A DNA stretch of 64,000 bases, from positions 129,445-193,444 of the forward strand of contig SVRK01000004.1 in NCBI GenBank assembly GCA_015064855.1, in the 5' to 3' direction. Below are positions 1,870 to 55,711 of the stretch, piece after piece. The stretch comes from Oscillospiraceae bacterium. Lineage in GTDB: Bacteria > Bacillota > Clostridia > Oscillospirales > CAG-272. Below the pieces are notes generated by a model, which was given only the letters and a program-made list of their open reading frames with translations, was not told the DNA's origin and did no database searches. The first letter of the stretch is position 1. Each line of letters starts with the position of its first letter. Made by a program: the position numbers and the translations under genes.

Positions 1870-1920
1870 TTAGCCTTCCCTAGCAGGGAAGGTGTCACGA
1901 AGTGACGGATGAGTAGAGCA
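1870..1920. repeat. Left compound inverted repeat of DUF559 cassette 1
   Basis: TAGCCTTCCCTAGCAGGGAAGGTG, then the small hairpin TCACGAAGTGA, then CGGATGAGTAGAGCAT. Its reverse complement recurs at 2312-2368 with only the middle hairpin different. Confidence 0.9.
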
Positions 1921-1934
1921 TTTAAGGAGAAGCT

Positions 1935-2303
1935 ATGAGTTATAAATACGAAAAAAATCTCGTTAGAAATGCACAGAAATTACGTAAAGATATGACCCCC
2001 GAGGAACGACGTTTGTGGTATGATTTTTTAAAAAAATTGCCCATAACCATCAACAGGCAAAAGAACATTGGAACTTATATTGTTGATTTTTTCATTTCAT
2101 CAAAACGGATTGCAATTGAGATAGACGGAGTAGGTCACGGAGAAGAAGAACAATATAAAAAAGACGTTATTCGTGACGAAGAATTAAACAAAATCGGTAT
2201 CACTGTTTTAAGATACCAAAATTATGATATTAATAAAAATTTTAATGGAGTTTGCAGGGATATTTTAAAAAAGCTTTCTATTTTGGAAGAAGATTTAAAA
2301 TAA
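1935..2303 (+). CDS. DUF559 (Vsr/restriction-endonuclease-like) domain protein
   Basis: 122 aa with an AAGGAG RBS. The pattern LRKDMTPEERRLWYDFLK...RQK.IG.YIVDF...IEIDG..H is typical of DUF559, and it is about 45 percent identical by eye to the ORF at 41531..41899. Confidence 0.85.
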   Translation: MSYKYEKNLVRNAQKLRKDMTPEERRLWYDFLKKLPITINRQKNIGTYIVDFFISSKRIAIEIDGVGHGEEEQYKKDVIRDEELNKIGITVLRYQNYDINKNFNGVCRDILKKLSILEEDLK

Positions 2304-2311
2304 TCCTAAAA

Positions 2312-2368
2312 ATGCTCTACTCATCCGTCTTGGCTATGCCAAGCCACCTTCCCTGCTAGGGAAGGCTA
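2312..2368. repeat. Right compound inverted repeat of DUF559 cassette 1
   Basis: ATGCTCTACTCATCCG, then the hairpin CTTGGCTATGCCAAG, then CACCTTCCCTGCTAGGGAAGGCTA. This is the reverse complement of 1870-1920. Confidence 0.9.
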
Positions 2369-2392
2369 AGTGGGTTGACGTTTTATTTTACT

Positions 2393-41479: not shown

Positions 41480-41528
41480 TAGCCTCCTTTGTAAAGGGAG
41501 GTGTCGCCATAGGCGACGGAGGGATTTT
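41480..41528. repeat. Left compound inverted repeat of DUF559 cassette 2
   Basis: TAGCCTCCTTTGTAAAGGGAGGT, then the hairpin GTCGCCATAGGCGAC, then GGAGGGATTTT. It starts one base after the pyrF stop, and its inner end supplies the GGAGG RBS of the DUF559 gene. Confidence 0.9.
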
Positions 41529-41530
41529 GT

Positions 41531-41899
41531 ATGAAATATAATCATAACAAAAATATTGTTCCGTTAGCTAAAGAGCTAAGGAAAAATATGACCTCTGAAG
41601 AAAAGCACCTATGGTATGATTTTTTAAGAAAGTATCCTATAAGGTTTTCAAGACAAAAGGTTATAGGAAATTATATAGTAGATTTTTATTGTGCAAAGGC
41701 TAATTTGGTAATAGAGCTTGACGGTTCACATCACGGACTTGAAAAGGAAACTGAAAAGGACGAAAAAAGAACCGAATATATTGAGTCGCTTGGGCTTACG
41801 GTGATAAGAATACCAAACTATGAAATAAAGGACAACTTTTTATATGTTTGCCGTTATATAGATAGCTTGGTGGAAAAATCCCTCCGTCAGCAAAGCTGA
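41531..41899 (+). CDS. DUF559 (Vsr/restriction-endonuclease-like) domain protein
   Basis: 122 aa with LRKNMTSEEKHLWYDFLR...RQKVIGNYIVDFYC...IELDGSHH. It is a paralog of 1935..2303. Confidence 0.85.
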   Translation: MKYNHNKNIVPLAKELRKNMTSEEKHLWYDFLRKYPIRFSRQKVIGNYIVDFYCAKANLVIELDGSHHGLEKETEKDEKRTEYIESLGLTVIRIPNYEIKDNFLYVCRYIDSLVEKSLRQQS

Positions 41900-41922
41900 C
41901 ACCTCCCTTTACAAAGGAGGCT
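41875..41922. repeat. Right compound inverted repeat of DUF559 cassette 2
   Basis: AAAATCCCTCC, then the hairpin GTCAGCAAAGCTGAC, then ACCTCCCTTTACAAAGGAGGCT. It overlaps the last 8 codons and the stop of the DUF559 gene. Confidence 0.9.
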
Positions 41923-41957
41923 TCTGTTTGCAAAAGAGCCTTGAAAAGGAGTTAGAA

Positions 41958-43871: not shown

Positions 43872-43989
43872 GGCTGTGACACAGGGGCAAAACCAAAAAT
43901 AAAAGGCGAAAAAGAGGTACATCGTTTGTCGGTGAGCCTCTTTTGTTTTTGTAAGGTTGAAAAACTTCGTTTTTCCTCAAAAGCTAATG

Positions 43990-44335
43990 CTTTTTGTTTT
44001 CGGGTGGGGCGACCCCACCCCTACGGTGTGTCGTTAATTTTGTTTGTCATTTGTAGGGGAGCATATTATGCTCCCGCTTTTTTCGGGAAGAGCAAGCCCC
44101 CCCTTAGCAGGGCGCAAACCTTTTGTCGCTTTGCGACATTTCCCTTAGCAAGGGAATCTCCCCTACGGTGTACCTCCAATTTGTGCTGTCATTCTGAACG
44201 CAGTGAAGAATCCCAAAGAGAGCCTTCGGCAGGCTCAGGATGACGGTGTACCGATAATTTGAATTATCATTTGTAGGGGCGACCATTGGTCGTCCGTTTG
44301 CACCACATCCGTCGCCTATGCGACGCGGTGCGGGG
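43990..44335. repeat. Cluster of at least six different REP-like hairpin modules
   Basis: The modules are GGGTGGGGCGACCCCACCC; GGGAGCATATTATGCTCCC; the GCGCAAACCTTTTGTCGCTTTGCGACATTTCCCTTAGCAAGGGAA module (also at 48288-48340); GTCATTCTGA...TCAGGATGAC; GGGGCGACCATTGGTCGTCC; and CGTCGCCTATGCGACG. Confidence 0.85.
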
Positions 44336-44481
44336 AAAGAATTTTTGGCTACTTGCAAAAAAATTTAAAAAATGTTAAAATAAATTGTAACCTTTTGGGT
44401 AAAAAATCCGTTTTTATAGGTGAAGGTACCTTAAAGTTCTTTTGAGATGTGTCAAATTGAGTGACATAAGGGGGGAGAAGA

Positions 44482-48047: not shown

Positions 48048-48141
48048 ATAACGAAAACCACGCGATGGTCGCGTGGTTCAAAAGAGGTTAACCGATGATG
48101 GAAAAGTAAACAAGAGAAAGAGGCAAGATATATTTTTAGAA

Positions 48142-48359
48142 AGGCTCCTTTGAAAAGGGAGCTGTCAGCTTTGCTGACTGAGGGATTATCTCTTAAAATT
48201 CAACTATATTGAAAGGCAAAATGTAAGGAGTAGAATATAGTTTATATAAATAAATCCCTCCGTCTGCCTATGGCGGTCCCCCCCTCTTAGCGAGGCGCAA
48301 CCCTTTTGTCGCGTTGCGACATTTCCCCTCACAGGGGAATCTCCCTTTACAAAGGAGGC
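48142..48359. repeat. Gene-less cassette with the same compound inverted-repeat ends as DUF559 cassette 2
   Basis: The left end is at 48142-48187 (GGCTCCTTTGAAAAGGGAGC, GTCAGCTTTGCTGAC, TGAGGGATT), followed by a 64-bp AT-rich core. The right end AAATCCCTCCGTCTGCCTATGGCGG is at 48252-48276, followed by an inserted module. CTCCCTTTACAAAGGAGGC lies at 48341-48359. Confidence 0.8.
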
Positions 48360-51974: not shown

Positions 51975-52067
51975 ATGTTAATTAAAAAGAACCCCGTTTT
52001 AACCGGATTTCATCCCGACCCTAAAAGGCTCCTTTGTGCAAAGGGAGCTGTCAGCTGTGCTGACTGA
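51975..52067 (+). other. Relic 5' end of a GH43 gene (16 codons) reading into a repeat and stopping
   Basis: A GAGGGAG RBS precedes the ATG at 51975. MLIKKNPVLTGFHPDP mirrors the start of the live gene at 52092. The frame then enters the palindromic repeat and reaches TGA at 52065-52067. Confidence 0.7.
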
Positions 52068-52073
52068 GGGATT
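52027..52073. repeat. Solo left-type compound repeat end
   Basis: GGCTCCTTTGTGCAAAGGGAGC, GTCAGCTGTGCTGAC, TGAGGGATT. The architecture is the same as 41480-41528 and 48142-48187. Confidence 0.88.
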
Positions 52074-52091
52074 GAGAAAAAAGGAGAAATT

Positions 52092-55689: not shown

Positions 55690-55711
55690 GCCTTCCCCTT
55701 GAGGGGAAGCC
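55690..55711. repeat. Palindrome of the cassette-1 type
   Basis: GCCTTCCCCTTGAGGGGAAGCC lies directly after the GH78-like stop codon. Compare CCTTCCCTAGCAGGGAAGG at 1873-1891. Confidence 0.6.

What the first reader, a model, noticed from the sequence alone, without database searches (positions are those of the whole stretch)
1870..2368. DUF559 nuclease gene boxed in by 51-57 bp compound inverted repeats: a REPtron-like or homing-like unit
A 122-aa DUF559 gene (Vsr/restriction-endonuclease fold) sits exactly between two inverted copies of a three-part repeat. The outer block is the palindrome CCTTCCCTAGCAGGGAAGG. The middle block is a small hairpin that differs between the two sides. The inner block is the 16-mer CGGATGAGTAGAGCAT. 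The outer and inner blocks are perfect between the two ends. The same three-part architecture recurs around a second DUF559 paralog (41480-41922) and as gene-less or solo copies (48142-48359, 52027-52073, 55690-55711). This resembles REP-associated tyrosine transposases (RAYTs), which are flanked by inverted REPs, but the enclosed gene here is from an unrelated nuclease fold. I know of no description of a DUF559-repeat partnership. The inference is that DUF559 is either the nuclease that disseminates or maintains this repeat family, or a homing-type gene that targets the centre of the palindromic element.
Basis: partly seen in the sequence, partly recalled or inferred. Interest (0 to 1): 0.8.

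Follow-up and report, generated by a model that had tools for sequence, protein, structure and literature searches.

The report
Triplex-forming repeats bracket DUF559 nuclease genes
A small nuclease gene of unknown function sits between two inverted copies of a ~50-base repeat that is built to fold into a DNA triple helix; the same pairing recurs in dozens of gut Clostridia and around E. coli's ycjD, which gives the long-unexplained BoxC/PIT repeats a candidate partner enzyme.

Summary
ORF 1935-2303 is a DUF559 (Vsr-fold) nuclease boxed in by perfect inverted arms. A second paralog (41531-41899) has the same architecture with different sequence.

The "inner block" is the mirror image of the purine arm of the "outer palindrome". 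Each module is therefore a potential purine-motif intrastrand triplex, like E. coli BoxC/PIT/TMECO, with a variable hairpin as connector. Three-way covariation supports this.

The partnership is general:
- Of 82 DUF559 relatives from about 80 Clostridia species, 46 carry inverted modules on both sides and only 2 carry none.
- Module density is about 44-fold higher next to these genes.
- Enterobacterial YcjD homologs at three or more chromosomal sites end inside inverted TMECO pairs. This was not reported before.

Modules far outnumber genes, and gene-less doublets occur. The units are mostly inherited vertically, with rare duplication.

Best reading: a REPIN/RAYT-like repeat-enzyme partnership built on a different enzyme and a different DNA structure. 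Whether the nuclease spreads the modules, homes into doublets, or is merely regulated by them is not shown.

The parts
1871..1923 (+). Left module of unit 1. Pyrimidine arm CCTTCCCT 1874-1881; loop AGC; purine arm AGGGAAGG 1885-1892; connector hairpin GTCACgaaGTGAC 1894-1906; mirror third strand GGATGAGT 1907-1914; shared extension AGAGCATTT 1915-1923.
   Evidence: CM E 7e-11; ssDNA fold gives two hairpins with X unpaired, z -4.5; generic triplex finder.
1924..2303 (+). Shine-Dalgarno AAGGAG (1924-1929) and DUF559 / YcjD-family Vsr-fold nuclease ORF 1935-2303 (122 aa).
   Evidence: Catalytic-type residues D51, E62, D64 and H68 are invariant in the alignment.
2310..2369 (-). Right module of unit 1, with its top strand on the minus strand. 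Plus-strand features: ACTCATCC 2319-2326 (complement of the third strand); connector hairpin CTTGGCtatGCCAAG 2329-2343; outer hairpin 2347-2365.
   Evidence: (E 1e-8).
41480..41530 (+). Left module of unit 2 (family X2). Pyrimidine arm CCTCCTTT 41483-41490; purine arm AAAGGGAGG 41493-41501; hairpin GTCGCCataGGCGAC 41503-41517; third strand GGAGGGATT 41518-41526, which also supplies the ribosome-binding site.
41531..41899 (+). Second DUF559 paralog (122 aa, 51% identical to ORF1), between pyrF and pyrE. Its last codons and stop lie inside the right module.
41877..41923 (-). Right module of unit 2.
48141..48359 (.). Gene-less doublet. Left module 48141-48185 (+), a 70-nt AT-rich spacer, then a right arm split by a nested variant module (48298-48343, minus strand, family X3).
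52025..52071 (+). Solo module of family X2. It follows a 16-codon duplicate of the 5' end of the next gene.
44116..44157 (-). Family X3 module inside a 600-bp intergenic stretch packed with module debris. A degenerate X1-like copy lies at 44301-44351 (minus strand).
55692..55709 (.). Outer hairpin only (CTTCCCCTTGAGGGGAAG), between convergent genes. It is either a remnant or an ordinary terminator.

Best explanation
Shown. Each flank is a roughly 50-nt module with four parts: a pyrimidine arm, a purine arm that pairs with it, a connector hairpin of arbitrary sequence, and a purine-rich tail. The tail is the mirror image of the purine arm, with A or T opposite A and G opposite G. That is the signature of a purine-motif intrastrand DNA triplex, the same design as E. 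coli BoxC/PIT/TMECO repeats. YcjD-family DUF559 nuclease genes sit between two such modules in inverted orientation. The left tail usually provides the ribosome-binding site, and the gene often ends inside the right module. Modules also occur as gene-less inverted doublets, arrays and solo copies, and they outnumber the genes.

Inferred. The nuclease is the cognate enzyme of the module family. It would recognise the folded module when the DNA is single-stranded or unwound, then nick or cut it. Host recombination and repair would then copy modules or doublets to new intergenic sites, and occasionally copy the gene-bearing unit. This works like a REPIN/RAYT partnership, but with a Vsr-fold nuclease and a triplex-forming repeat. 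The gene itself is long-lived and mostly vertically inherited.
For: Hairpins. 96.3% of cells are paired, with 328 double changes. The covariation score is 0.385, against 0.106 in shuffles and at most 0.038 when partners are slid.

Triplex. Mutual information between tail and purine-arm columns is strictly antidiagonal: 0.84, 0.25, 0.26 and 0.06, with off-diagonal values at most 0.03 and 0/2000 permutations for the three strongest (9/2000 for the 0.06 pair). The triples are GGC<->TCG, AAT<->GGC and GGC<->TAT. A sequence-blind triplex finder gives 11 clusters in the window against 1.2 in shuffles. Eight of them are the modules, in three unrelated sequence families.

Strand. G:T outnumbers A:C 17 to 3 on the module's own strand, including modules antisense to the gene (7 to 1). 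This points to DNA rather than mRNA.

Association in Clostridia. 46/82 genes are flanked on both sides, 19 more have one correctly oriented flank, and 2 have none. Density is 4.7 per kb near the genes against 0.11 per kb elsewhere. The best viral-contig relative shows the same arrangement.

Selection. At the conserved mgl|DUF559|rlmH site the modules stay about 97-100% identical, while the protein falls to 81% and 68%.

Mobility. Two copies on one contig are 98% identical, and the homology ends at the module outer edges. The pyrF|pyrE junction is empty in most relatives, holds doublets in two, and holds DUF559 units in three lineages. Doublets with the same spacer recur within a locus.

Second phylum. 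E. coli TMECO no. 9 lies 168 nt from the ycjD stop. Enterobacter, Klebsiella and Phytobacter homologs at other sites end inside inverted TMECO pairs.

Fold. The closest solved structure is homing endonuclease I-Bth0305I.
Against: - No biochemical or genetic result links the protein to the modules.
- In 1.07 Mb of virus-classified contigs chosen by the module pattern there are 200 modules and no DUF559 gene. Modules therefore persist without the gene in cis.
- A PD-(D/E)XK nuclease cannot by itself carry out strand transfer, so the copying step is hypothetical.
- There are no target-site duplications or other transposition scars.
- The genome loci were chosen through the protein, which inflates the share of modules next to genes.
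- Holder et al. found no in vivo footprint of the E. coli triplex.
- TMECO number in E. coli tracks phylogroup at least as well as ycjD presence.
Confidence: 0.5

Rival explanations
1. Homing-type selfish gene. The module doublets are an independent repeat family. The DUF559 gene is a free-standing homing endonuclease gene that cuts empty doublets and is copied into their centre by repair, with the modules serving as homology arms.
For: - The closest solved fold is a homing endonuclease, with weak matches to homing-endonuclease families.
- The L015/L016 copies are identical from the inner tail through the gene but differ in the outer hairpins. That is the expected outcome of conversion into a pre-existing doublet.
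- The pyrF|pyrE site holds empty junctions, gene-less doublets and DUF559 genes of different lineages in different species.
- Doublets without a gene are common.
Against: - The gene has stayed at one syntenic site from 100% down to 68% identity, intact and with conserved flanks. This is unlike the gain-decay-loss cycle of homing genes.
- Only one near-identical within-genome pair was found among 82 genes.
- Doublet spacers are 17-112 nt and unrelated in sequence, so no common target site is visible.
- E. coli carries one ycjD and about 23 TMECOs, none of them invaded.
Confidence: 0.2
2. No enzymatic link. The modules are general intergenic elements, such as terminators, insulators or recombination-prone non-B DNA. 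They accumulate around, or are recruited to control, a potentially toxic nuclease gene. The left tail gives the ribosome-binding site, and its inverted copy downstream can pair with it in read-through mRNA to silence translation.
For: - The tail lies 0-8 nt before the ATG in 30/57 cases.
- The outer sides are A/T-rich, so each outer hairpin can terminate outward transcription.
- Modules are abundant without any DUF559 nearby.
- Holder et al. found TMECO next to all gene classes.
Against: - A 44-fold enrichment with fixed orientation on both sides in about 80 species, and again in Enterobacteria at three or more sites with a different module sequence, is hard to get without a specific link.
- Mirror covariation is kept in gene-less and downstream copies, where the tail is not a ribosome-binding site.
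- The G:T bias follows the module strand, not the mRNA strand.
Confidence: 0.2
3. Host-beneficial structure-specific repair nuclease. The protein removes or processes triplex or hairpin structures that stall replication. It stays next to modules because it co-evolves with the genome's module families.
For: - The gene is vertically inherited, intact and under purifying selection.
- Vsr, a relative, is a repair nuclease.
- TMECO sites block polymerases in vitro and are linked to rearrangements.
Against: - This does not explain why the gene must lie between inverted modules, or why its ends overlap them.
- It does not explain several paralogs each with its own module family in one genome.
- ycjD is missing from 38% of E. 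coli genomes that still carry TMECOs.
Confidence: 0.1

Closest known systems
E. coli BoxC / PIT elements / TMECO triplex motifs (Bachellier et al.; Hoyne and Maher 2000; Holder et al. 2015, PMC4666352)
   Same: - The order of parts is the same: pyrimidine arm, loop, complementary purine arm, loop, mirror purine/T third strand (class II purine motif).
- They are intergenic.
- They occur in both orientations and often as inverted pairs that combine two subtypes.
- One mismatched triplet is common.
- They are associated with variable loci.
   Different: - The second loop here is a 13-25 nt hairpin of free sequence instead of 3 nt, so earlier searches (loops of 1-6 nt) could not find these modules.
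- The arm sequence differs: CCTTCCCC rather than CCCTCNCCC.
- The hosts are Clostridia.
- Here the modules flank a gene. No associated gene was reported for BoxC/TMECO.
REP/REPIN-RAYT systems (REPtrons)
   Same: - The repeat family is a folded single-strand structure.
- Inverted doublets occur.
- The repeats outnumber a gene that is itself flanked by inverted repeats.
- The gene is vertically inherited, and several gene/repeat families can coexist in one genome.
- There are no target-site duplications.
   Different: - The enzyme is a Vsr-fold PD-(D/E)XK nuclease, not an IS200-like HUH tyrosine transposase.
- The repeat carries triplex potential plus two hairpins, and lacks the conserved 5' GTAG.
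- No activity has been shown.
- Some genomes hold duplicated gene-bearing units.
Vsr-fold (EDxHD) homing endonuclease I-Bth0305I, and Vsr
   Same: The catalytic fold is shared: 3r3p at TM 0.76, 1vsr, and 3hrl. All are small nucleases, and some relatives are mobile.
   Different: The gene is not inside an intron or intein. It is a single domain of 122 aa with no added DNA-binding domain. It is not next to a cytosine methyltransferase.
IS elements with MITE derivatives
   Same: There are terminal inverted repeats of about 50 bp, one small ORF that runs into the right end, short gene-less derivatives, and translation start sequences inside the left end.
   Different: There is no transposase fold, no target-site duplication, and long-term synteny. 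The two ends of a unit are often different module alleles.

Membership tests
DUF559 / YcjD family (Vsr-fold PD-(D/E)XK nuclease) | Significant match to PF04480 over the whole domain. | tested here: met
   E 5e-26 and 1.5e-28, above the gathering score. PDB 3hrl matches at E 7e-12.
DUF559 / YcjD family (Vsr-fold PD-(D/E)XK nuclease) | Equivalog of E. coli YcjD (NCBIfam PRK09767 cut-off). | tested here: not met
   53 and 68 bits against a cut-off of 218. The alignment is nearly full length. The proteins are homologs, not equivalogs.
DUF559 / YcjD family (Vsr-fold PD-(D/E)XK nuclease) | Vsr-like fold with the acidic/His catalytic residues kept. | tested here: met
   The model has pLDDT 72. Top folds are 3r3p, 3hrl and 1vsr. 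D51, E62, D64 and H68 are invariant.
BoxC / PIT / TMECO intrastrand-triplex repeats | Three consecutive blocks: a pyrimidine arm, a complementary purine arm, and a mirror purine/T block able to form G*G:C, A*A:T and T*A:T triplets. | tested here: met
   7 of 8 positions are canonical in nearly all modules. Covariation is antidiagonal. The generic finder gives 8 module hits in three families.
BoxC / PIT / TMECO intrastrand-triplex repeats | Consensus CCCTCNCCC N3-6 GGGNGAGGG N3 GGGNGAGGG with short loops. | tested here: not met
   The arm sequence is different and the second loop is a 13-25 nt hairpin. The design is the same, but this is not the same sequence family.
BoxC / PIT / TMECO intrastrand-triplex repeats | Triplex actually forms (CD, NMR or footprint). 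| not testable with these tools
   Only shown in vitro for the E. coli motif by Holder et al..
REPIN-RAYT (REPtron) | The enclosed gene is an IS200/IS605-like Y1 (HUH) transposase. | tested here: not met
   Only DUF559-type families are matched.
REPIN-RAYT (REPtron) | The gene is flanked by inverted copies of the genome's repeat. Repeats form inverted doublets and outnumber the gene. | tested here: met
   E. coli has 1 ycjD against 23 TMECOs.
Homing endonuclease gene | Sporadic presence at an otherwise conserved site, with a recognisable intact target in empty alleles. | tested here: inconclusive
   Presence is sporadic at pyrF|pyrE but stable at mgl|rlmH. No common target sequence is seen in doublet spacers.
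Insertion sequence / MITE | A transposase gene and target-site duplications. | tested here: not met
   There is no transposase domain. 2-nt direct repeats occur in 6/46 units, against 20/46 for inverted ones.
Known structured RNA (Rfam), including hammerhead | Match to an Rfam covariance model. | tested here: not met
   None at gathering score in the window, and nothing meaningful at E <= 10 in 1800-2450. The CUGAUGA-like tail is GGAUGAG in most copies and there is no GAAA.

The most novel reading that the evidence does not exclude
YcjD-family DUF559 proteins are structure-specific nucleases that recognise folded intrastrand-triplex modules and drive their spread or maintenance. On this reading, BoxC/PIT/TMECO repeats in Enterobacteria and the hairpin-bearing modules in Clostridia are the repeat half of one ancient, cross-phylum repeat-enzyme partnership. 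That partnership would be mechanistically unrelated to REP/RAYT, IS elements or known homing systems. It would also explain the genome instability reported at TMECO loci.
Probability: 0.35. Interest if true: 0.9.

Novelty: new variant of a known kind. Interest (0 to 1): 0.78.

Why it matters
BoxC/PIT/TMECO repeats have been known since the 1990s. No origin, function or associated protein has been found for them. DUF559/YcjD is a very large protein family with no known role. Linking the two, in two phyla and at many independent loci, turns both unknowns into one testable hypothesis: does this nuclease act on folded triplex modules?

If it does, it would be the first bacterial enzyme dedicated to a triplex-forming repeat, and a second, mechanistically distinct example of a REPIN/RAYT-type symbiosis. 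It would also offer a cause for rearrangement hot spots at these repeats.

The link also explains why DUF559 genes were flagged as enriched targets of predicted inversions.

Tried and rejected
- Hammerhead or another ribozyme. The CTGATGAG-like tail prompted this. It was rejected because most copies read GGATGAG, there is no GAAA, the cleavage position would be a G, and there is no Rfam hit.
- Tail pairing by Watson-Crick with the pyrimidine arm as an alternative hairpin. Rejected because covariation links the tail's 5' base to the outer pair, not the inner one.
- mRNA-level structure as the main constraint. This is disfavoured because wobble pairs follow the module strand even when it is antisense to the gene. 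According to Holder et al., purine-motif triplexes do not form in RNA.
- Target-site duplications. None were found.
- The duplicated gene start before the solo module at 52025 as a target duplication. The two copies differ at about 9 of 45 positions, so this reads better as a deletion remnant.
- MAFFT alignment of modules for structure prediction. It misaligned the connector hairpin and was replaced by a gap-free seed and a covariance model.
- The virus-contig module set as an independent covariation test. The search pattern had fixed most positions, so only the outer triple could be re-observed.
- ORF-based orientation analysis in those contigs. It was unreliable at 50-69% G+C.
- TMECO number against ycjD presence in E. 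coli. Counts are higher with ycjD (10-22 against 1-11 places), but the comparison is confounded by phylogroup, and lineages that gained ycjD show no excess.
- Defence-system models. Only weak nuclease-domain matches were found.

Full report
**1. The observation**

The arms 1870-1894 / 2345-2369 (25 nt) and 1904-1923 / 2310-2329 (20 nt) are perfectly complementary. The short hairpins between them differ on the two sides. The 19-mer and 16-mer occur nowhere else in the window, against chance expectations of 0.01 and 0.30.

ORF 1935-2303 is a 122-aa DUF559 protein (PF04480, E 5e-26). It lies between a Met-gamma-lyase-family gene and rlmH. A second DUF559 gene, 51% identical, lies between pyrF and pyrE at 41531-41899. 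It has the same three-part flanks but different block sequences.

A covariance model built from related modules recovers both ends of both units, the left end of the gene-less pair (48141-48185) and the solo copy (52025-52071), all at E <= 4e-6. The site 55692-55709 matches only the outer hairpin.

**2. What the repeat is**

I collected 80 genomic loci that encode relatives of the protein, from uncultured Clostridia: Oscillospiraceae, Acutalibacteraceae, Christensenellaceae, Lachnospiraceae and others. Nearly all carry the same module. Its consensus is (A)GCCTTCCCC-loop-GGGGAAGG-(TG/GG)-hairpin-GGATGAGG(T/A)G.

Both hairpins are supported by covariation. 96.3% of cells are paired, and 328 cells are changed on both sides. 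The covariation score is 0.385, against 0.106 in shuffles and at most 0.038 when partners are slid. The second hairpin changes at every pair.

The decisive point is the tail. The 5' arm of the first hairpin is all pyrimidine and the 3' arm all purine. The tail is the mirror image of the purine arm, with T allowed opposite A. Mutual information between tail columns and purine-arm columns is strictly antidiagonal:
- The four matching pairs score 0.84, 0.25, 0.26 and 0.06.
- Every off-diagonal value is at most 0.03.
- The three strongest give 0/2000 permutations; the 0.06 pair gives 9/2000.
- The observed triples are G*G:C <-> T*C:G, A*A:T <-> G*G:C and G*G:C <-> T*A:T.

This polarity excludes Watson-Crick pairing of the tail with the pyrimidine arm.

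A sequence-blind search for [quoted passage not shown] finds 11 clusters in the window, against 1.2 in shuffles. Eight of them are the modules. They fall into three unrelated sequence families with tails GGATGAGT, G/TGAGGGAT and AAAAGGGT.

Folded as single-stranded DNA, each module gives the two hairpins and leaves the tail free (z -4.2 to -5.1). Wobble G:T pairs outnumber A:C 17 to 3 on the module's own strand. The same holds for modules antisense to the gene (7 to 1). This points to a DNA-strand structure rather than an mRNA structure.

This design is that of the E. coli BoxC/PIT/TMECO elements, which are class II purine-motif intrastrand triplex motifs. The Clostridial modules differ in arm sequence. 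They also carry a 13-25 nt hairpin where TMECO has a 3-nt loop, so earlier searches limited to loops of 1-6 nt would have missed them. Rfam has no matching family.

**3. The association with DUF559**

Among 82 DUF559 ORFs in these loci:
- 46 have a forward module upstream and a reverse module downstream within 200 nt.
- 19 more have one correctly oriented flank.
- 2 have no module at all.

Module density is 4.7 per kb within 200 nt of the genes, against 0.11 per kb in the rest of the loci.

The tail ends 0-8 nt before the ATG in 30 of 57 cases, so it doubles as the ribosome-binding site. The right module overlaps the stop codon in 9 cases and abuts it in 7. Complete units are 438-802 bp. They have A/T-rich outer flanks and no target-site duplication. 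The closest relative on a virus-classified contig shows the same flanks.

**4. A second phylum**

Both window proteins align almost end to end with the E. coli YcjD model, so I looked at ycjD. Its stop lies in a degenerate TMECO. TMECO no. 9 of Holder et al. (1351204-1351239) lies 168 nt downstream, next to a partial duplicate of the gene's 3' end. With 23 TMECOs in 4.6 Mb, the chance of one lying that close to a given gene is a few per thousand.

YcjD homologs sit at other chromosomal sites in other genera, and each ends inside a reverse-strand TMECO followed by a forward one:
- Enterobacter asburiae and E. cancerogenus, between hemW and yggM.
- Klebsiella quasipneumoniae, between a solute-binding-protein gene and a Dyp-type peroxidase gene.
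- Phytobacter, next to yggM.

Holder et al. state that they never found mobility-related genes near TMECOs. I found no paper that links these repeats with DUF559 or YcjD.

**5. Evolutionary behaviour**

*Vertical inheritance.* The mgl|DUF559|rlmH arrangement is kept in species whose protein is 81% and 68% identical.

*Selection on the modules.* Across that divergence the modules remain about 97-100% identical, while the surrounding 4.8 kb is 81% identical. The one exception is a connector hairpin that was swapped wholesale for another type.

*Mobility.* Two copies on one contig are 98% identical over 548 bp, and the homology stops at the module outer edges. Their outer hairpins differ while the tail and gene are identical, which gives a mosaic.

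*The pyrF|pyrE junction.* It is 11-22 nt and empty in most of 80 relatives. It holds gene-less doublets in two of them (L091, L123) and unrelated inserts in a few. DUF559 units occupy it in the window, in L015 and in L169. These three proteins are no closer to each other (52-64%) than to other family members.

*Repeats outnumber genes.*
- 18 head-to-head gene-less doublets with 36-112 nt spacers occur in the loci. Some have the same spacer repeated two or three times.
- 200 modules and no DUF559 gene occur in 1.07 Mb of virus-classified contigs selected only by the module pattern.
- E. coli has one ycjD, present in 3378 of 5426 genomes, and about 23 TMECOs.
- Gene-less doublets usually combine the two module subtypes (10 of 16), as E. 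coli inverted pairs combine type A with type B.

**6. The protein**

The predicted structure (pLDDT 72) is closest to three solved structures:
- the catalytic domain of homing endonuclease I-Bth0305I (3r3p, TM 0.76);
- the DUF559 protein 3hrl;
- Vsr.

The acidic and histidine residues typical of the fold are invariant. There are only weak matches to defence or phage families, through the nuclease domain.

**7. Interpretation**

Four things are shown:
- the anatomy of the unit;
- the triplex-type covariation;
- the cross-phylum association;
- selection on the modules.

That the nuclease acts on the modules is inferred. The pattern matches REPIN/RAYT systems best:
- the gene is flanked by inverted repeats;
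- doublets are the common free form;
- repeats outnumber genes;
- inheritance is vertical;
- several families coexist in one genome.

The enzyme and the DNA structure are different from those of REPIN/RAYT.

A homing reading is the main rival. One mosaic duplicate, the occupancy pattern at pyrF|pyrE and the fold all support it. Long synteny, the rarity of near-identical copies, and the lack of a common target in doublet spacers weigh against it.

A purely regulatory or "safe-haven" reading cannot easily explain two things. One is the repeated, oriented association in two phyla with different module sequences. The other is the conservation of mirror symmetry in copies that are not ribosome-binding sites.

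**8. Caveats**

- The Clostridial loci were selected through the protein.
- The module detector covers mainly one sequence family.
- Triplex formation is inferred from sequence only, and was not seen in vivo for TMECO.
- The E. coli contrast in TMECO number (10-22 places with ycjD, 1-11 without) is confounded by phylogroup.
- Milman et al. list DUF559 genes among enriched targets of predicted inversions. The inverted modules that overlap these genes are a likely reason, but I saw no inverted orientation at the conserved sites.

Noticed in passing
L088 (E. coli K-12 NC_000913.3 1348500-1352500), 2700-3330; L183, L188, L194, L198: Enterobacterial ycjD-family genes end inside an inverted pair of TMECO/BoxC triplex motifs at three or more different chromosomal sites. 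E. coli ycjD also has a perfect 17-nt inverted repeat (TCACCTCATTCTGACAA / TTGTCAGAATGAGGTGA) over its start codon, and a partial duplicate of its own 3' end beside TMECO no. 9.
   Followed up: partly
E. coli genome collection: In an evenly spaced sample of 60 genomes, those with ycjD have 10-22 TMECO-containing places and those without have 1-11 (median about 3). The difference follows phylogroup, and lineages with a divergent ycjD allele have about 10, so the link is suggestive only. ycjD is single-copy and present in 3378 of 5426 genomes.
   Followed up: partly
window 43872-44480: A 600-bp intergenic stretch after the aspartate carbamoyltransferase gene is packed with hairpin repeats. These include a third module family (TTCCCTTGCTAAGGGAA-A-TGTCGCaaaGCGAC-AAAAGG..., 44116-44157, minus strand) and a degenerate X1-like copy (44301-44351, minus strand). 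The same third family is nested inside the right arm of the gene-less pair at 48298-48343.
   Followed up: partly
window 51975-52091: A 33-codon ORF starts like the next gene (MLIKKNPVLTGFHPDP against MLVRKNPVLTGFHPDP, a GH43-like N-terminus), runs into the solo module and stops in its tail. It looks like the remnant of a deleted paralog whose break point is at the module.
   Followed up: no
L016 2310-2420; L076, L078, L085 (outer hairpin loops); window 48270-48345: Modules are themselves insertion or rearrangement sites. Extra hairpins or whole modules sit in the loop of the outer hairpin, or between the outer hairpin and the connector hairpin.
   Followed up: no
L010, L037, L056, L305: Gene-less doublets with identical spacers (111-112, 41 and 44 nt) are repeated two or three times in tandem, giving BIME-like alternating arrays. 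L305 has a 508-bp unit repeated three times.
   Followed up: partly
Loci L230-L349 (virus-classified contigs): Modules are common on contigs of 50-69% G+C, so the family extends well beyond the 41% G+C genome of the window. Distant neighbours on one contig mostly share orientation (42 same, 9 opposite), which hints at a strand bias relative to replication or transcription.
   Followed up: partly
Doublets and units in L008-L087: Gene-less doublets combine a G-class module (GCC...GG, tail GGATGAGG) with a T-class module (GGC...GC, tail TGATGAGG) in 10 of 16 cases, against 11 of 48 for gene-bearing units. This echoes the type A + type B pairing of E. coli TMECO pairs.
   Followed up: partly
L169 2081-2443: In one species a small zinc-ribbon membrane-protein gene lies between pyrF and the DUF559 gene. 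There, the module doublet sits downstream of the DUF559 gene rather than around it.
   Followed up: no
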